Source: Escherichia coli (GTDB lineage Bacteria > Pseudomonadota > Gammaproteobacteria > Enterobacterales > Enterobacteriaceae). Taken from it: a stretch of 64,000 nucleotides of DNA. Of the stretch, positions 20,194 to 25,551 are shown in pieces (position 1 is the first letter of the stretch; each line of letters opens with the position of its first letter). Position numbers and translations under genes: made by a program. The notes below the pieces were generated by a model, which had not been told where the DNA came from, ran no database searches, and was given only the letters and a program-made list of their open reading frames with translations. The DNA lies in NCBI RefSeq assembly GCF_003018235.1, contig NZ_CP027437.1; one strand, given 5' to 3'.

Positions 20194-20564
20194 CTATACT
20201 TCCTCCGTGTTTTCGATGAGATGTAAGGTAACCAATTTTTGCCGATTCGGCTAATGCGTTTCCATTATCAAATCGATAAGTTTTACCTTACAACCTTCGT
20301 AAGACAACTTTGTGAACTTTGCACCGCCAGCGGCGATAAAAAGTAAAATGGCCCCCTTTCCAGGTGACCGTGTAATCTGAACTACCCTTTGGTATCTTCA
20401 GCGCCTGCCTGCAGGCTGAGGTGTTGCCCTTACAAATGCAACAACGACATGGATTACAACACCCTCATAAACAAAGGGCAATCACCTGATCTAAGCTCTT
20501 ACCTATGACAGTGATAGGTTATGCCTTTTACCCGACTTTTGCACTGACTGAAAAGGACAAATTA
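20194..20564. promoter_or_regulatory. Divergent ahpC/dsbG promoter region (OxyR-regulated by established knowledge)
   Basis: 371-bp intergenic region between divergent ahpC and dsbG; no OxyR site could be pinpointed by eye. Confidence 0.35.
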
Positions 20565-21518: not shown

Positions 21519-22421
21519 ATGGCGAATCTTTATGACCTAAAAAAATTTGATCTGAATTTACTGGTCATATTTGAGTGCATTTATCAACACCTCAGCATTA
21601 GCAAAGCAGCAGAATCATTATATATAACGCCCTCTGCTGTTAGTCAGTCGTTACAACGTTTACGCGCGCAATTTAATGACCCGTTATTCATCCGCTCAGG
21701 GAAAGGTATCGCGCCGACTACGACAGGGTTAAACCTGCATCACCATCTTGAGAAGAATCTCCGAGGCCTTGAACAAACGATCAATATTGTTAATAAGTCT
21801 GAGCTAAAGAAAAATTTTATTATCTACGGTCCTCAGCTTATTTCTTGTACTAATAACAACATGCTAATCTGCTGTCTTAGACAAGATACTTCAATCGATA
21901 TAGAATGCCATGACATACTGCTTTCAGCTGAAAATGCCGAAGAACTGTTGGTTCAACGCAAAACTGACCTGGCAATTACACTACAACCAGTAATTAGCCG
22001 CTCTGTCATCTGCATGCCGTTACATACTATTCGCAATTCTCTTATATGTAGCAATAAACATCCTCGTATTACCGATACCAGTAACTATGAACAAATTATC
22101 GCCGAAGAATTCACCTTGTTGATATCTAAATCAGCAGGGATTGACGAAATTCAAATGGACATAGATGAACGTTTTATGAACCGTAAAGTTTCATTTCGCA
22201 GTTCTTCTTTGTTGACGATAATTAATAGTATTTCTGTTACTGACTTATTGGGCATTGTGCCCACCGAACTGTACGATTTACATCGTGATTTTTTGAAGTT
22301 ACAAGAGATAAAACTGGAACGACCACTTCCTGCGGTTAAACTTTATATTTCCTATAACAAGGCTTCGTTGAACAACCTTGTCTTCTCACGATTCATAGAT
22401 CGTTTAAATGATAGCTTCTGA
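21519..22421 (+). CDS. ybdO: LysR-family transcriptional regulator YbdO
   Basis: Trimmed to MANLYDLKKFDLNLLVIFECIYQH... (300 aa); N-terminal LysR HTH; gene is conspicuously AT-rich. Confidence 0.85.
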   Translation: MANLYDLKKFDLNLLVIFECIYQHLSISKAAESLYITPSAVSQSLQRLRAQFNDPLFIRSGKGIAPTTTGLNLHHHLEKNLRGLEQTINIVNKSELKKNFIIYGPQLISCTNNNMLICCLRQDTSIDIECHDILLSAENAEELLVQRKTDLAITLQPVISRSVICMPLHTIRNSLICSNKHPRITDTSNYEQIIAEEFTLLISKSAGIDEIQMDIDERFMNRKVSFRSSSLLTIINSISVTDLLGIVPTELYDLHRDFLKLQEIKLERPLPAVKLYISYNKASLNNLVFSRFIDRLNDSF

Positions 22422-22567
22422 TTTATTACCACGGATAAATGTTATATTACGCATCAATTGATTCATTGTGTGAATATAAAATAATGTGCTCTATCTTGCT
22501 TCGTTTACCCTATAATTAACGGATTCATCTCACGAGTCACCCCGTAACGTTCAGAGAGCGTTTTCAG

Positions 22568-23788
22568 ATGTCTATTTATAAAATCCCGCTTCCACTGAAT
22601 ATTCTGGAAGCTGCAAAAGAACGTATTACCTGGACACTTAACACCCTACCCCGCGTCTGCGTTTCTTTTTCGGGTGGTAAAGATTCCGGATTAATGCTGC
22701 ATCTGACCGCCGAACTTGCCCGACAAATGGGCAAAAAAATTTGTGTTTTATTTATCGACTGGGAAGCTCAGTTCTCTTGCACCATTAACTATGTTCAGTC
22801 TCTGCGCGAGTTGTACACCGATGTCATCGAAGAGTTTTACTGGATTGCGCTCCCGCTTACAACGCAAAATTCCCTATCACAATACCAACCCGAATGGCAG
22901 TGCTGGGAACCTGATGTCGAATGGGTACGTCAGCCCCCGCAAGATGCGATAACCGATCCTGACTTTTTCTCCTTTTACCAGCCTGGCATGACCTTCGAAC
23001 AATTTGTGCGTGAGTTTGCCGAATGGTTTTCGCAAAAACGTCCGGCGGCGATGATGATCGGCATCCGTGCGGATGAGTCCTACAACCGTTTTGTCGCCAT
23101 CGCCAGTTTAAATAAACAACGTTTTGCCGATGATAAGCCCTGGACTACTGCCGCACCAGGCGGTCATAGCTGGTACATTTACCCCATCTACGACTGGAAA
23201 GTCGCTGATATCTGGACCTGGTATGCTAGCCATCAACGCCTCTGTAACCCACTGTATAATATAATGTATCAGGCAGGCGTTCCTCTACGTCATATGCGAA
23301 TTTGCGAACCTTTTGGTCCGGAACAACGGCAAGGATTATGGCTCTATCACGTTATCGAACCGGATCGCTGGGCTGCTATGTGCGCACGAGTCAGCGGGGT
23401 AAAAAGTGGCGGCATTTACGCCGGACATGACAACCATTTTTATGGTCATCGGAAAATCCTCAAGCCCGAACATTTAGACTGGCAGGAGTATGCATTATTG
23501 CTACTCAACAGCATGCCGGAGAAAACAGCTGAGCATTATCGCAATAAAATCGCCATTTATTTGCACTGGTATCAGAAAAAAGGCATCGAGGTTCCACAAA
23601 CCCAGCAAGGGGACATTGGCGCGAAAGATATCCCCTCCTGGCGGCGAATATGCAAAGTTTTACTCAATAACGATTACTGGTGTCGGGCATTATCATTTAG
23701 CCCGACCAAAGCGAAGAACTATCAGCGTTATAACGAACGAATAAAAGGAAAACGTCAGGAATGGGGGATACTATGCAACAACGATTAA
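22568..23788 (+). CDS. ybdN: PAPS-reductase-like (PP-loop ATP pyrophosphatase, DndC/IbrA-like) protein YbdN
   Basis: 406-aa ORF with PP-loop SGGKDS at residues 35-40. Confidence 0.88.
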   Translation: MSIYKIPLPLNILEAAKERITWTLNTLPRVCVSFSGGKDSGLMLHLTAELARQMGKKICVLFIDWEAQFSCTINYVQSLRELYTDVIEEFYWIALPLTTQNSLSQYQPEWQCWEPDVEWVRQPPQDAITDPDFFSFYQPGMTFEQFVREFAEWFSQKRPAAMMIGIRADESYNRFVAIASLNKQRFADDKPWTTAAPGGHSWYIYPIYDWKVADIWTWYASHQRLCNPLYNIMYQAGVPLRHMRICEPFGPEQRQGLWLYHVIEPDRWAAMCARVSGVKSGGIYAGHDNHFYGHRKILKPEHLDWQEYALLLLNSMPEKTAEHYRNKIAIYLHWYQKKGIEVPQTQQGDIGAKDIPSWRRICKVLLNNDYWCRALSFSPTKAKNYQRYNERIKGKRQEWGILCNND

Positions 23789-24390
23789 CGCAGGATTTAA
23801 CCCAATTTCTCGCCAGCTTGCCGGAAGACGATCGCATCAAAGCGATTAATGAAATCCGCATGGCGATCCATCAGGTTAGCCCCTTTCGAGAAGAGCCAGT
23901 GGATTGCGTTCTGTGGGTTAAAAACAGCCAACTTATGCCTAATGATTACAACCCAAACAACGTGGCACCACCCGAAAAAAAACTGCTGAAAAAATCCATT
24001 GAAATAGATGGTTTTACCCAACCCATTGTGGTCACGCATACGGATAAAAATGCCCTGGAAATCGTGGATGGTTTTCACCGCCATGAAATTGGTAAAGGCT
24101 CATCATCGTTAAAATTACGCTTAAAAGGTTATTTGCCGGTGACCTGTCTGGAAGGTACGCGTAATCAACGCATCGCCGCGACTATTCGTCATAACCGCGC
24201 TCGTGGACGTCACCAAATCACTGCCATGTCAGAAATCGTCCGTGAACTCAGCCAGTTGGGATGGGACGATAATAAAATTGGCAAAGAGCTGGGAATGGAC
24301 AGCGACGAAGTGCTACGCCTGAAGCAAATTAACGGCCTGCAAGAGTTGTTTGCCGACCGTCAATATTCCCGCGCCTGGACGGTTAAATAG
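23761..24390 (+). CDS. ybdM: ParB/sulfiredoxin-fold (DGQHR/DndB-like, IbrB-like) protein YbdM
   Basis: 209-aa ORF with a DGFHRH motif at residues 103-108; overlaps the ybdN 3' end by 28 nt. Confidence 0.85.
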   Translation: MGDTMQQRLTQDLTQFLASLPEDDRIKAINEIRMAIHQVSPFREEPVDCVLWVKNSQLMPNDYNPNNVAPPEKKLLKKSIEIDGFTQPIVVTHTDKNALEIVDGFHRHEIGKGSSSLKLRLKGYLPVTCLEGTRNQRIAATIRHNRARGRHQITAMSEIVRELSQLGWDDNKIGKELGMDSDEVLRLKQINGLQELFADRQYSRAWTVK

Positions 24391-25551
24391 CTAAAGCTGG
24401 CGCAGGCGTTCAGCTGCTGCCAGCAACGTCGATTCCTTCTTGGCAAAACAGAGACGAATCAGTTTATGTGGGAAGGGATCGGCGCAAAACACCGATAGCG
24501 GAATCGCCGCTACGCCGTGCTCCTGCGTCAGCCACTGGCAAAACTCAACGTCATCCAGGGTAGATACGGCGCTGTAATCCACCAGCAAAAAGTATGTACC
24601 TTCGCACGGTAAAATCTCCAGCCGGCTTTCATTTAAGGCATTCACCAGAATATCGCGCTTCTGGCGATAAAAGTCCGGTAACGCAAGATAATGCTCAGGT
24701 TCTGCACGTAGCATATCGGCAAGCGCCAGCTGTGCCGGGGTATTCACCGAAAAGGTCAGATACTGATGTACCTTGCGAATTTCGGCACTGATGGGCGCTG
24801 GCGCAACGCAATAACCCACTTTCCAGCCGGTCATATGATAGGTCTTGCCAAACGATGACACCGCCACCGCCCGCTCACGCAGCTGCGGATGCGCCTGCAC
24901 GCTGGCATGGCCCTGTTGTGAAAAGTTGATGTGCTCGTAAACTTCATCGCTAATGACAAAAATCTCGTGCCCGGCAATTGCCTGCCACAAAGCGGCGAAA
25001 TCAGCCTGCTGCCAGACAGTTGCACTGGGGTTATGCGGGGTGTTGAGGATCACCAGTCGGGTGCGCTCGCTTAACAATGCGGCAAATTCCTGCCAGTCCA
25101 CGCGAAAATGCGGTGGTTGCAGTGCAATACGTTTCACTATTCCCCCCGAAAGCGCGATGGCGGGCGCGTAACTGTCATAGCTGGGATCAAAGCAGATCAC
25201 TTCATCACCATTGCGCACCAATGCGGTAATCGCTGCATATAACGCTTCCGTCGCCCCTGCCGTTACGGTGATATCACTATCGGCATCCGGTTGATAGCCA
25301 TACAGACGTTCCGTTTTCTGAGCAATCGCCTCGCGCAAGGCCTGCACGCCAGTCATAGGCGCGTATTGGTTTGCCCCCTGGTCAACATGGTACGCCAGCC
25401 GCTCCTGCAAATAGCGCGGACCATCAAAATCAGGAAAGCCTTGCGAAAGGTTAATCGCCTGGTGTTGCTGCGCCAGCGCGCTCATCTGGGTGAAAATAGT
25501 GGTGCCAAGTTGTGGAAGTTTGCTTTGTGGAATCAGAGGGTTATTTGTCAT
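24391..25551 (-). CDS. ybdL: PLP-dependent methionine aminotransferase YbdL
   Basis: 386-aa ORF, class I/II aminotransferase, matches YbdL. Confidence 0.92.
   Translation of the reverse strand: MTNNPLIPQSKLPQLGTTIFTQMSALAQQHQAINLSQGFPDFDGPRYLQERLAYHVDQGANQYAPMTGVQALREAIAQKTERLYGYQPDADSDITVTAGATEALYAAITALVRNGDEVICFDPSYDSYAPAIALSGGIVKRIALQPPHFRVDWQEFAALLSERTRLVILNTPHNPSATVWQQADFAALWQAIAGHEIFVISDEVYEHINFSQQGHASVQAHPQLRERAVAVSSFGKTYHMTGWKVGYCVAPAPISAEIRKVHQYLTFSVNTPAQLALADMLRAEPEHYLALPDFYRQKRDILVNALNESRLEILPCEGTYFLLVDYSAVSTLDDVEFCQWLTQEHGVAAIPLSVFCADPFPHKLIRLCFAKKESTLLAAAERLRQL

What the first reader, a model, noticed from the sequence alone, without database searches (positions are those of the whole stretch)
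22568..24390. ybdN/ybdM: overlapping PP-loop PAPS-reductase-like and ParB/DGQHR-like gene pair resembling a minimal Dnd/Ibr module
YbdN carries an intact PP-loop (SGGKDS) as in PAPS reductase and DndC-type sulfur-transfer enzymes. YbdM carries a DGFHRH motif of the ParB/sulfiredoxin/DGQHR fold, as in DndB-like proteins and ParB nucleases. The genes overlap by 28 nt, implying co-translation, and lie directly downstream of the AT-rich regulator ybdO. The architecture parallels the IbrA/IbrB pair and the DndB/DndC core of DNA phosphorothioation systems, yet no function is established. A nucleic-acid modification or defence-related role is a reasonable hypothesis, not a demonstrated one.
Basis: partly seen in the sequence, partly recalled or inferred. 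Interest (0 to 1): 0.5.

Follow-up and report, generated by a model that had tools for sequence, protein, structure and literature searches.

The report
E. coli ybdN-ybdM, an IbrA/IbrB pair
These are the already annotated E. coli genes ybdN and ybdM, a conserved, normally repressed copy of a two-gene module (an ATP-using enzyme plus a ParB-like partner) that is otherwise carried mostly by phages; its biochemical job is still unknown, and it lacks the hallmarks of DNA sulfur modification.

Summary
ybdN (22568-23788, 406 aa, intact PP-loop SGGKDS) and ybdM (23761-24390, 209 aa, DGFHR motif) overlap by 28 nt. They lie 146 bp downstream of the AT-rich LysR gene ybdO/citR.

The pair is an annotated core locus, present in 5420 of 5426 complete E. 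coli genomes. It is syntenic across Enterobacteriaceae and under strong purifying selection (dN/dS about 0.03-0.18).

It belongs to the IbrA/IbrB family, with 56-57% identity to a coliphage IbrA/IbrB. In 91 loci spanning many bacterial phyla, one archaeal MAG and phages, an IbrB-like gene lies on the same strand in 86, adjacent in nearly all.

- **YbdN:** an active-type PP-loop enzyme of the PAPS-reductase/CysD/FAD-synthase clade, plus a basic helical DUF3440 domain.
- **YbdM:** a ParB/sulfiredoxin-fold domain with three divergent but invariant nucleotide-pocket motifs, plus a KorB-like helix-turn-helix.

The Dnd-like reading holds only at superfamily level. No cysteine is conserved in the IbrA family, Dnd models score far below cut-off, and no Dnd partner genes occur.

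Recurrent third partners are an SNF2-type helicase (20 loci) and a remote GNAT-like protein (18 loci).

My best inference, unproven, is a DNA-directed, ATP-dependent, non-sulfur modifying or remodelling pair that alters (pro)phage gene expression.

The parts
21519..22421 (+). ybdO/citR, an AT-rich LysR-type repressor of ybdNM.
   Evidence: ORF; the RefSeq start is the MANLYD... methionine. NCBIfam CitR match at 2e-135, 450.9 bits against a 400-bit cut-off. GC is 0.35-0.39. ChIP-exo and RNA-seq show that CitR represses ybdNM (PMC9068703). A homolog is found only in the Enterobacteriaceae loci: 10 loci, 10 of the 12 ortholog loci.
22422..22567 (+). ybdO-ybdN intergenic region (146 bp, AT-rich), the presumed ybdNM promoter and operator region.
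   Evidence: Sequence. One sigma-70-like match lies at 22458-22485, but the number of promoter-like sites in the region is no higher than in shuffled sequence. The region is poorly conserved between genera.
22568..23788 (+). ybdN, an IbrA-family protein. It has a PP-loop ATP-pyrophosphatase core of the PAPS-reductase/CysD/FAD-synthase clade (about residues 1-234, with a Trp-rich insert at 84-156) and a basic helical DUF3440 domain (about residues 235-406).
22670..22687 (+). Codons of the PP-loop S35-G-G-K-D-S40.
   Evidence: G37, K38 and S40 are invariant and S35, G36 and D39 are at least 90% conserved in 76 sequences.
23761..23788 (+). 28-nt overlap of ybdN (3' end) and ybdM (5' end).
   Evidence: The same -28 overlap occurs in 11 of the 12 enterobacterial ortholog loci. 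Other family members overlap by 4-20 nt or lie within a few nt.
23761..24390 (+). ybdM, an IbrB-family protein. It has an N-terminal helical hairpin (1-39, clade-specific), a ParB/sulfiredoxin-fold nucleotide-binding domain (about 45-130) and a KorB / sigma-region-4-like helix-turn-helix (about 134-196).
24067..24081 (+). Codons of D103-G-F-H-R107, the counterpart of ParB box II (GERR) and of sulfiredoxin GCHR.
   Evidence: D, G and R are invariant and H is present in 73 of 75 sequences.
24187..24213 (+). Codons of R143-H-N-R-A-R-G-R-H151, an invariant RHNRARGxH motif and the likely counterpart of ParB box III (ENxxR).
   Evidence: All named positions are 75 of 75. The correspondence to box III is my inference from spacing and motif pattern.

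Best explanation
**Identity (shown).** ybdN-ybdM is the vertically inherited, CitR-repressed chromosomal copy of the IbrA/IbrB two-gene module. That module is otherwise carried mainly by phages, prophages and genomic islands.

**The two proteins (shown by structure prediction and profile comparison).**
- YbdN is an active-type PP-loop ATP pyrophosphatase. Its nearest solved relatives (FAD synthase, CysD, APS/PAPS reductases) all handle an adenylyl group joined to a phosphate or sulfate oxyanion. It carries an extra Trp-rich insert and a basic helical DUF3440 domain.
- YbdM is a ParB/sulfiredoxin-fold nucleotide-binding domain joined to a KorB-like helix-turn-helix.

**Mechanism (inferred).** The two proteins act as one unit on DNA.
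1. YbdM, gated by a bound NTP, provides DNA targeting or activation. Other ParB-like proteins do this for DNA-modifying enzymes.
2. YbdN uses ATP to adenylylate an oxygen on the nucleic-acid target, releasing PPi.
3. This leads to a non-sulfur covalent mark or a remodelling step.
4. The outcome is altered expression or protection of (pro)phage DNA. This fits the one genetic result for the family: ibrA and ibrB together switch on prophage eib genes.

In phages the pair is often extended by an SNF2-type translocase or a GNAT-like protein. In E. coli it is kept nearly silent by CitR.
For: **Identity**
- 56% (IbrA) and 57% (IbrB) identity to Escherichia phage PhiR5_2, with the same overlapping gene order.
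- AFDB neighbours are named 'Immunoglobulin-binding regulator' or 'Co-activator of prophage gene expression IbrA'.
- Full-length PHROG matches: phrog_2302 at 1e-76 and phrog_2159 at 4e-69.

**Obligate pairing**
- An IbrB-like ORF lies on the same strand in 86 of 91 loci, adjacent or overlapping in nearly all. Gene order is sometimes reversed.
- Four of the five exceptions are cut by contig ends; one is a true orphan.

**Active enzyme**
- Invariant: G37, K38 and S40 of the PP-loop, plus D64, E66 and D214. At least 90% conserved: the rest of the PP-loop and the GxRxxES motif.

**Nucleotide pocket in YbdM**
- NxYNPN (at least 90% conserved), DGFHR and RHNRARGxH; D103, G104, R107 and the whole RHNRARGxH motif are invariant across 75 sequences from many phyla.
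- The family aligns to the ParB/Noc CTP-binding domain and folds like sulfiredoxin, KorB, SbnI and SerK.

**DNA as the target**
- A consistently basic DUF3440 domain.
- An SNF2-type helicase (Pfam SNF2-rel_dom + Helicase_C) abutting the pair in 20 of 91 loci.
- The second-best PHROG for IbrB proteins is the ParB-like N-terminus of DNA methyltransferases (phrog_498, 1e-10 to 1e-13).
- A GNAT-like third gene in 18 loci.
- Precedents: a ParB-like activator required by a phage thymine dioxygenase on dsDNA (PMC13229309), and the ParB-like ATPase DpdB, needed for preQ0 insertion into DNA (PMC12839542).

**Non-sulfur chemistry**
- No conserved cysteine.

**Expression phenotype**
- ibrB-containing strains show enhanced Eib expression (Sandt 2002, as cited in PMC7649339).
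- CitR represses ybdNM: log2 fold change +5.5 for ybdN and +2.5 for ybdM in the citR deletion (PMC9068703).

**A functional, selected gene pair**
- Present in 5420 of 5426 genomes; dN/dS 0.03-0.18 with no internal stops.
Against: - No biochemical or genetic test of ybdNM exists. The substrate, the chemistry, the YbdN-YbdM interaction and DNA binding by YbdM are all inferred.
- The helix-turn-helix region of IbrB proteins is not consistently basic (family median pI 6.3).
- YbdM lacks the C-terminal dimerisation domain of clamp-forming ParB proteins.
- E. coli ybdNM has no adjacent helicase or GNAT partner.
- Deleting or overexpressing ybdM alone gave only 1-2% and 10% growth effects (PMC8764527).
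- The citR deletion also raises the cys regulon (PMC9068703). This could point to a sulfur or PAPS link that the cysteine argument does not exclude.
- Activation of eib could equally come from transcription regulation without any covalent modification.
Confidence: 0.4

Rival explanations
1. **Pure transcription control.** YbdM/IbrB is a VirB/KorB/BisD-like NTP-switched DNA-binding regulator, for example an anti-silencer of H-NS-repressed AT-rich (pro)phage genes. YbdN only supports it, for instance by making or removing a nucleotide ligand or by adenylylating YbdM. DNA is not chemically modified.
For: - ParB-fold proteins VirB and BisD regulate gene expression through CTP binding (PMC12704722; PMC10770331 listed).
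- IbrAB activates eib genes.
- The citR-ybdNM locus is AT-rich and reported as H-NS regulated (PMC9068703).
Against: - It does not explain why an intact, strongly conserved ATP pyrophosphatase is an obligate partner in 86 of 91 loci.
- It does not explain the recruitment of SNF2 helicases or GNAT-like proteins.
- YbdM lacks the GERR arginine patch and the C-terminal dimerisation domain of clamp-type ParBs.
- The module also occurs in Streptococcus thermophilus Moineauvirus phages in a region with no integrase annotated.
Confidence: 0.25
2. **Another target.** The pair modifies RNA (for example tRNA), a protein or a free nucleotide or metabolite rather than DNA. YbdM would act as a sulfiredoxin/SerK-like ATP-dependent phosphotransferase and YbdN as an adenylyltransferase working on the phosphorylated product.
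For: - One locus has a tRNA_bind-domain neighbour.
- The cys regulon rises when ybdNM is derepressed.
Against: - The helix-turn-helix in YbdM, the SNF2 helicase partners and the affinity to ParB-methyltransferase fusions all point to DNA.
- No recurrent metabolic neighbour was found.
Confidence: 0.12
3. **Conflict system.** The module is an anti-phage defence in bacteria, or a counter-defence or self-protection device in phages (a functional label that could sit on top of the best explanation).
For: - In phages the module sits in the accessory region between the lysis genes and the early genes.
- A mobile ibrAB copy occurs in 1930 of 5426 E. coli genomes, with up to 4 copies and 66 places on plasmids, and lies in an IS-rich island in one strain.
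- There are weak PADLOC hits to DndC and BrxP.
- A preprint lists nucleoid-protein + PAPS reductase (+ParBc) operons among candidate PANGU-like defences.
Against: - ybdNM itself is a core, syntenic, repressed locus among housekeeping genes.
- PADLOC matches are far below family level.
- No restriction or effector partner is conserved.
Confidence: 0.1
4. **The first reader's reading.** The pair is a minimal Dnd/Ssp-like module that puts sulfur into DNA (phosphorothioate) or thiolates a base.
For: - An intact SGGKDS loop, as in DndC, and a DGxHR-type motif, as in DndB.
- Marginal HMM hits to DndC at 8e-5 and 2e-5.
- Cys-regulon induction in the citR mutant.
Against: - DndC model score is 21.7 bits against a 290.4-bit cut-off, and there is no DndB/DGQHR model hit.
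- No conserved cysteine, so no three-Cys 4Fe-4S site or Cys dyad (against PMC10853773).
- No DndA, DndD, DndE or SspBC neighbours.
- The closest folds are FAD synthase, CysD and APS reductase rather than the thiolases.
Confidence: 0.05
5. **The RefSeq product name taken literally.** YbdN is an assimilatory PAPS reductase.
For: - RefSeq product name.
Against: - Scores are far below the CysH cut-offs: 34 bits against 254.2 and 33.2 against 154.
- No conserved cysteine, so no counterpart of the C-terminal catalytic Cys of CysH (the CysH feature is from established knowledge).
- The PP-loop is intact, whereas in CysH it is degenerate (established knowledge).
- The pairing with a ParB-like protein is obligate.
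Confidence: 0.02

Closest known systems
IbrA/IbrB of the E. coli ECOR-9 IbrAB island and of phages (immunoglobulin-binding regulators; 'co-activators of prophage gene expression')
   Same: - Same two-protein architecture: PAPS_reduct + DUF3440, followed by a ParB-like + helix-turn-helix protein.
- Same overlapping gene order.
- 56-57% identity to the phage PhiR5_2 pair.
- Same conserved motifs.
   Different: - ybdNM is a core chromosomal locus with its own LysR repressor, CitR. It is present in nearly all E. coli and syntenic across Enterobacteriaceae.
- ibrAB is mobile, present in about 36% of genomes, on islands, prophages and some plasmids.
- Whether ybdNM can activate eib or any prophage gene has not been tested.
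DndC/DndB of DNA phosphorothioation systems (and the PAPS-reductase-like BrxP of type 4 BREX)
   Same: A PP-loop enzyme of the PAPS-reductase superfamily is encoded beside a ParB-superfamily protein with a DGxHR-type motif. ATP-dependent activation of a DNA oxygen is a plausible shared first step.
   Different: - No 4Fe-4S cysteines and no Cys dyad.
- No DndA, DndD or DndE.
- Model scores are far below cut-off.
- DUF3440 takes the place of the DndC C-terminal region.
- YbdM has a KorB-like helix-turn-helix and does not match DndB models.
CysD (ATP sulfurylase small subunit), eukaryotic-type FAD synthase (FMN adenylyltransferase) and APS/PAPS reductases
   Different: YbdN has a 70-residue Trp-rich insert and a 170-residue basic helical domain. 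It has an obligate ParB-like partner and no metabolic gene context.
ParB-fold regulators and accessory proteins: KorB, VirB, BisD (CTP-switched gene regulators); DpdB; the ParB-like activator of phage thymine dioxygenases; ParB-methyltransferase fusions
   Same: A ParB/sulfiredoxin nucleotide-binding fold is followed by a helix-turn-helix, as in KorB. These proteins also provide precedents for ParB-like proteins that enable DNA-modifying enzymes or are fused to them (phrog_498).
   Different: - DGFHR replaces GERR.
- There is no C-terminal dimerisation domain.
- There is no ParA or parS context.
- The partner enzyme is a PP-loop ATP pyrophosphatase. I found no characterised system that pairs a ParB-like protein with such an enzyme outside Dnd.

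Membership tests
IbrA/IbrB family | IbrA-type architecture: PAPS_reduct (PP-loop) core plus C-terminal DUF3440. | tested here: met
   Pfam PAPS_reduct at 1.7e-6 and 3.9e-5, DUF3440 at 5.1e-23. Full-length phrog_2302 at 1e-76. AFDB50 neighbours are named IbrA or immunoglobulin-binding regulator.
IbrA/IbrB family | An IbrB-type ParB-like gene immediately adjacent or overlapping on the same strand. | tested here: met
   The window has a 28-nt overlap. An IbrB-like ORF lies on the same strand in 86 of 91 family loci, adjacent or overlapping in nearly all. phrog_2159 matches at 4e-69. RefSeq names ybdM 'IbrB-like domain-containing protein'.
IbrA/IbrB family | Clear sequence similarity to proteins annotated IbrA and IbrB. 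| tested here: met
   56.4% identity over 99% of YbdN to phage PhiR5_2 IbrA. 57% identity of YbdM to its IbrB.
IbrA/IbrB family | The two genes together activate prophage eib expression. | not testable with these tools
   This is known only for ECOR-9 ibrAB (Sandt et al. 2002, cited; the paper itself is not held).
DndC (DNA phosphorothioation sulfurtransferase) | Match to the DndC model above its curated cut-off. | tested here: not met
   TIGR03183 gives 21.7 bits against a 290.4-bit cut-off. PADLOC DndC gives 2.1e-5, 21.7 bits, on residues 155-259 only.
DndC (DNA phosphorothioation sulfurtransferase) | 4Fe-4S centre held by three cysteines, plus a distinctive cysteine dyad (PMC10853773). | tested here: not met
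   No cysteine column is conserved. The best column is 78% Cys but is Ala94 in YbdN. Cysteine patterns are mosaic, and some members have 1-3 Cys in total.
DndC (DNA phosphorothioation sulfurtransferase) | Intact PP-loop (SGGKDS). | tested here: met
   Residues 35-40; G37, K38 and S40 are invariant and S35, G36 and D39 are at least 90% conserved.
DndC (DNA phosphorothioation sulfurtransferase) | Operon with DndD/DndE (and DndA or IscS). | tested here: not met
   The window neighbours are citR and ybdL. Clustering of all ORFs in 91 loci found only an SNF2 helicase and a GNAT-like protein as recurrent partners.
DndB / DGQHR-domain proteins | Match to the DndB or DGQHR-domain models. | tested here: not met
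   The NCBIfam scan of YbdM at E <= 0.01 returned only Noc (2.7e-4) and ParB (8.7e-3) models.
DndB / DGQHR-domain proteins | DGxHR motif in a ParB-superfamily fold. | tested here: met
   DGFHR at residues 103-107, with D, G and R invariant. This is a superfamily-level feature only.
Assimilatory PAPS reductase (CysH) | Match to the CysH models above cut-off, and a C-terminal catalytic cysteine. | tested here: not met
   TIGR02057 gives 34 bits against 254.2. NF002537 gives 33.2 against 154. TIGR00434 gives 23.6 against 165.1. There is no conserved cysteine.
Clamp-type ParB/KorB/VirB CTPases | ParB N-terminal nucleotide-binding fold. | tested here: met
Clamp-type ParB/KorB/VirB CTPases | GERRxR arginine patch (box II). 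| tested here: not met
   The aligned segment is DGFHR(H/Y). It is closer to sulfiredoxin GCHR (the sulfiredoxin motif is recalled from established knowledge).
Clamp-type ParB/KorB/VirB CTPases | Central helix-turn-helix DNA-binding domain. | tested here: met
Clamp-type ParB/KorB/VirB CTPases | C-terminal dimerisation domain; parS site; ParA partner. | tested here: not met
   The protein ends at residue 209, right after the helix-turn-helix. No ParA-like neighbour is present. A parS-like site was not searched for.
Known anti-phage defence systems (PADLOC-DB 2.0) | Family-level match to a component of a catalogued system. | tested here: not met
   Only marginal hits were found: DndC 2.1e-5, BrxP 1.7e-4 and MTase_II 6.6e-4.

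The most novel reading that the evidence does not exclude
IbrA/IbrB, alone or with an SNF2 translocase or a GNAT-like protein, is a previously unrecognised class of ATP-dependent, sulfur-independent DNA-modifying (epigenetic 'writer') system. It is shared by phages from many bacterial phyla and by Enterobacteriaceae. On this reading, nearly every E. coli carries a silent copy that CitR (and, as reported, H-NS) keeps off, and it would change DNA chemistry and (pro)phage gene expression when derepressed.
Probability: 0.2. Interest if true: 0.8.

Novelty: already known. Interest (0 to 1): 0.4.

Why it matters
ybdN and ybdM are among the remaining function-unknown genes of the E. coli core genome. 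The same pair is widespread in phages of dairy streptococci, gut Bacteroidales, Clostridia, Flavobacterium and others, where databases label it a sulfur-metabolism 'auxiliary metabolic gene' or a 'partition protein'. If the pair is a DNA-directed ATP-dependent modifier or regulator, those labels are wrong. It would also be a new route by which phages and hosts mark DNA or switch on horizontally acquired genes.

The work here narrows the experiments:
- Look for a non-sulfur product.
- Test YbdN and YbdM together.
- Use citR deletion to switch the genes on.
- Consider an SNF2 helicase or a GNAT-like protein as a missing third player.

Tried and rejected
**Searches that led nowhere**
- A single-protein scan of viral contigs found only one near-identical fragment.
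- The word-indexed homolog search returned almost only enterobacterial orthologs. Diversity came instead from the representative search and the genome scan.
- The Foldseek search of AFDB50 returned only the protein's own family.
- No solved structure of a close relative exists.
- Longer IbrA or IbrB homologs showed no informative fused domain.
- Pfam and NCBIfam gave nothing for the 136-aa Bacteroidales partner. Only hhalign linked it to a GNAT-like neighbour.

**Regulatory region**
- Promoter and terminator consensus scans around ybdNM were no better than shuffled sequence.
- The citR-ybdN intergenic region is not conserved between genera.
- Rfam found nothing in ybdNM.

**Literature**
- I found no functional study of the family beyond Sandt 2002. 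That paper and Maindola 2014 are not held.
- A four-term search for PAPS reductase, ParB-like, phage and helicase found no paper.
- A 2025 survey of the ParB-CTPase fold does not mention YbdM, IbrB or PAPS reductase in its main text.

**Considered and rejected**
- Dnd-like sulfur insertion, because there is no conserved Cys and no Dnd partner genes.
- CysH-like sulfate assimilation.
- Membership of a catalogued defence system.
- A partition ParB, because there is no ParA, no dimerisation domain and no GERR patch.

**Not attempted**
- I did not attempt a YbdN-YbdM complex prediction. The structure tool takes one chain and returns no inter-domain error map, so a linker fusion would not have been interpretable.


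Full report
**What is there**

The window is the E. coli ahpCF-dsbG-citR(ybdO)-ybdN-ybdM-ybdL-hcxA-ybdD-cstA region. ybdN is 22568-23788 (+, 406 aa) and ybdM is 23761-24390 (+, 209 aa). The two overlap by 28 nt.

YbdN carries SGGKDS at residues 35-40. YbdM carries DGFHR(H) at residues 103-108. ybdO lies upstream, separated by 146 bp. It has 35-39% GC, against 46-50% in ybdNM, and it matches the NCBIfam CitR model above its cut-off.

**A known, core, selected locus**

- A megablast of the 1823-bp pair finds it in 5420 of 5426 complete E. coli genomes, nearly always once and on the chromosome. RefSeq annotates it as ybdN 'phosphoadenosine phosphosulfate reductase' and ybdM 'IbrB-like domain-containing protein'.
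- Orthologs with the same neighbours occur in Citrobacter, Enterobacter, Pseudocitrobacter, Kluyvera, Superficieibacter and others; 11 of the 12 ortholog loci keep the same 28-nt overlap.
- All orthologs examined are intact. dN/dS against the window copy is about 0.04 for ybdN and 0.03-0.18 for ybdM.
- ChIP-exo and RNA-seq show that CitR binds upstream of citR-ybdNM. Deleting citR raises ybdN by log2 5.5 and ybdM by log2 2.5 (PMC9068703).
- YbdM protein rose 29-fold in cells carrying a CTX-M-15 plasmid. The authors of that study call it 'completely uncharacterized' (PMC8764527).
- A Keio ybdM knockout appeared in a peptide-resistance screen (PMC12147183).
- I found no functional study of either protein.

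**Family membership**

- YbdN has Pfam PAPS_reduct (split into two pieces by an insert) plus DUF3440. YbdM has a weak ParB_N match.
- Both match phage protein families over their full length: phrog_2302 at 1e-76 and phrog_2159 at 4e-69.
- Escherichia phage PhiR5_2 encodes an overlapping IbrA/IbrB pair that is 56% and 57% identical to YbdN and YbdM.
- A copy about 84% identical in DNA to the phage ibrAB occurs in 1930 of 5426 E. coli genomes. Some genomes hold up to four copies, and 66 places are on plasmids. In one strain it sits in an IS-rich island.
- ibrA and ibrB were named because they activate prophage eib genes (Sandt et al. 2002, cited; the original paper is not held).

ybdNM is therefore the resident chromosomal member of the IbrA/IbrB family.

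**Distribution and neighbourhood**

An exhaustive search of 1.84 billion representative proteins finds 1682 clusters at E <= 0.001 and 217 at E <= 1e-30.

I collected 79 genome loci, covering Proteobacteria, Bacteroidota, Firmicutes, Verrucomicrobiota, Actinobacteria, Campylobacterota and one archaeal MAG. I added phage and metagenome loci.

- **Pairing.** In 86 of 91 loci an IbrB-like ORF lies on the same strand, adjacent to or overlapping the IbrA-like gene in nearly all; in two a gene sits between them. Occasionally the order is reversed. Four of the five exceptions are cut by contig ends, and one (L065) is a true orphan.
- **Partners.** Clustering all neighbouring ORFs shows only two recurrent third genes.
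  - An SNF2-type helicase (Pfam SNF2-rel_dom + Helicase_C) abuts the pair in 20 loci.
  - A 136-aa protein occurs in 17 Bacteroidales loci. It is remotely related (hhalign probability 93%, E 3e-7) to a GNAT acetyltransferase that sits between the two genes in another locus.
- **Absent partners.** No cysteine desulfurase, DndD/E-like gene, nuclease or ParA recurs.
- **LysR gene.** It is specific to the Enterobacteriaceae ybdNM locus.
- **Position in phages.** In Streptococcus, Lactobacillus and Clostridium phages the module lies between the lysis genes and the early or regulatory genes. This position is typical of accessory functions (my inference).

**YbdN**

- With a 76-sequence alignment the AF2 model is confident (pLDDT 93.1, pTM 0.90).
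- G37, K38 and S40 of the PP-loop, D64, E66, W119, D214 and Y230 are invariant. The rest of the PP-loop, the GxRxxES motif (165-171), R174, the P.YDW....D.W motif, R244 and R274 are at least 90% conserved.
- A 70-residue insert (84-156) holds three or four conserved tryptophans.
- The helical DUF3440 domain (235-406) has no solved counterpart. It is basic in 95% of members (median pI 9.4).
- No cysteine is conserved. The most frequent cysteine column (78%) is alanine in YbdN, the patterns are mosaic, and some members have only one to three cysteines.
- DndC is defined by a three-cysteine 4Fe-4S site and a cysteine dyad (PMC10853773). From established knowledge, CysH uses a C-terminal catalytic cysteine, and the PP-loop thiolases use cysteines or Fe-S clusters.
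- The DndC, CysH and CysD models all score far below their cut-offs.

YbdN therefore looks like a working ATP pyrophosphatase. Its nearest relatives join or split an adenylyl-oxyanion bond. It does not have the equipment of a sulfur-inserting or PAPS-reducing enzyme.

**YbdM**

- IbrB proteins are unusually conserved, at 39-57% identity to YbdM outside its close orthologs.
- Three motifs stand out: N.YNPN, DGFHR and RHNRARGxH. In 75 sequences D103, G104, R107 and every named position of the last motif are invariant.
- In the HMM alignment to Noc and ParB, the first two motifs fall on ParB box I and box II (GERR). By spacing and pattern ([E/H]-N-x-x-R), the third motif corresponds to box III. 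That correspondence is my inference.
- The AF2 model (pLDDT 88) has three parts: a helical hairpin (1-39, present in only about 30 of 75 members), a ParB/sulfiredoxin core (45-130) and a helical domain (134-196).
- There is no C-terminal dimerisation domain, no GERR patch and no match to DndB/DGQHR models.
- The next-best phage family for IbrB proteins is the ParB-like N-terminus of DNA methyltransferases (phrog_498).

**How it most likely works**

Shown:
- The identity of the pair.
- The pairing of the two genes.
- The predicted folds.
- The conserved sites.
- Repression by CitR.

Inferred: the two proteins form one functional unit that acts on DNA.

- YbdM supplies nucleotide-gated targeting or activation. 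A ParB-like protein does this for a phage thymine dioxygenase on dsDNA (PMC13229309). The ParB-like ATPase DpdB does this for preQ0 insertion into DNA.
- YbdN spends ATP to adenylylate an oxygen on the target. The result would be a non-sulfur mark or a remodelling step that changes expression or protection of (pro)phage DNA.
- The SNF2 helicase and GNAT-like partners, the basic DUF3440 domain and the eib phenotype all fit this picture.

The main rival is regulation without modification, in the manner of VirB, KorB or BisD. It explains the eib phenotype, but it does not explain the obligate, conserved enzyme. Other rivals are a non-DNA target (sulfiredoxin/SerK-type phosphotransfer plus adenylyl transfer), a conflict role, Dnd-like sulfur chemistry and sulfate assimilation. 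The last two fail specific tests.

One loose end remains. The citR deletion also raises cysDNC, cysJI and cysAUW by log2 2-2.8. This may be indirect, or it may hint at use of a sulfur nucleotide.

**Comparison with the known, and verdict**

The pair is a member of the IbrA/IbrB family: all testable features are met. It is not a member of the DndC, DndB, CysH, clamp-type ParB or catalogued defence families, because defining features were tested and not met. It may still resemble Dnd in its first step, ATP-dependent activation of a DNA oxygen beside a ParB-superfamily protein.

The genes, their domains and their homology to IbrAB are already in the databases and the literature, so the finding itself is known. 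The open question is the biochemistry, which none of the papers I could search addresses. This analysis adds four points:
- Family-wide absence of cysteines.
- Near-obligate pairing.
- An invariant ParB-like nucleotide pocket.
- SNF2 and GNAT-like partners.

Interest is moderate. This is an ordinary annotated locus, but it is a tractable, conserved unknown with a realistic chance of hiding a new DNA-directed activity.

Noticed in passing
window 20338-20431 (- strand): Rfam match to the enterobacterial sRNA STnc70 (44.1 bits against a gathering score of 40, E 1.7e-6). It lies in the ahpC-dsbG intergenic region.
   Followed up: no
window 24390/24391: ybdM (+) ends at 24390 and the convergent ybdL ORF (-) occupies 24391-25551, so there is no spacer between them. 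The only terminator-like site nearby lies inside ybdL. An RNA-seq survey lists ybdL-ybdM as a convergent 'excludon' with overlapping transcripts (PMC12288877).
   Followed up: partly
NZ_CP090319.1 1592937-1595958 (hit H1): In E. coli strain EECO1006 the otherwise 100% identical ybdNM match is split into two pieces, with an IS5-family transposase annotated under the match. This is a natural insertion in the locus.
   Followed up: no
L002 4758-5996, L003 4833-6002, L005 4611-6023, L006 7212-9170 and 16 further loci: An SNF2-type helicase gene abuts or overlaps the IbrA/IbrB pair in 20 of 91 loci, mostly directly upstream. E. coli ybdNM and ibrAB lack it.
   Followed up: partly
L047 7577-7984 and 16 other Bacteroidales loci; L012 2438-2869: A 136-aa protein with no Pfam, NCBIfam or PHROG match sits directly upstream of IbrA in 17 loci. 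It is remotely similar (hhalign probability 93%) to a GNAT acetyltransferase that lies between IbrA and IbrB in L012.
   Followed up: partly
Literature: PMC9068703 Table 1: Deleting citR/ybdO raises ybdN and ybdM. It also raises the sulfate-assimilation genes cysD, cysN, cysC, cysJ, cysI, cysA, cysU and cysW (log2 2.0-2.8) and the flagellar regulon. Whether the cys response depends on ybdNM is unknown.
   Followed up: no
L065 7974-9284 (Bacteroides finegoldii DSM 17565) and L031 (Edwardsiella ictaluri): L065 is a true orphan IbrA-like gene with no IbrB-like neighbour, although the same genome has a complete pair at L052. L031 holds a second IbrB-like ORF 7.3 kb downstream of the first pair.
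   Followed up: partly
AFDB entry A0A6N3R9C3: A 505-aa Shigella flexneri protein named 'ParB-like nuclease domain protein' aligns over 341 columns at 92% identity to YbdN. It looks like a ybdN-ybdM read-through or frameshift fusion, or an annotation artefact.
   Followed up: no
L014 (record titled Escherichia coli strain SCPM-O-B-8794): Its ybdN and ybdM differ from the window copy by dS of about 0.7 (93% protein identity). That is far more than typical within-species divergence, so the assembly may belong to a divergent Escherichia lineage.
   Followed up: no
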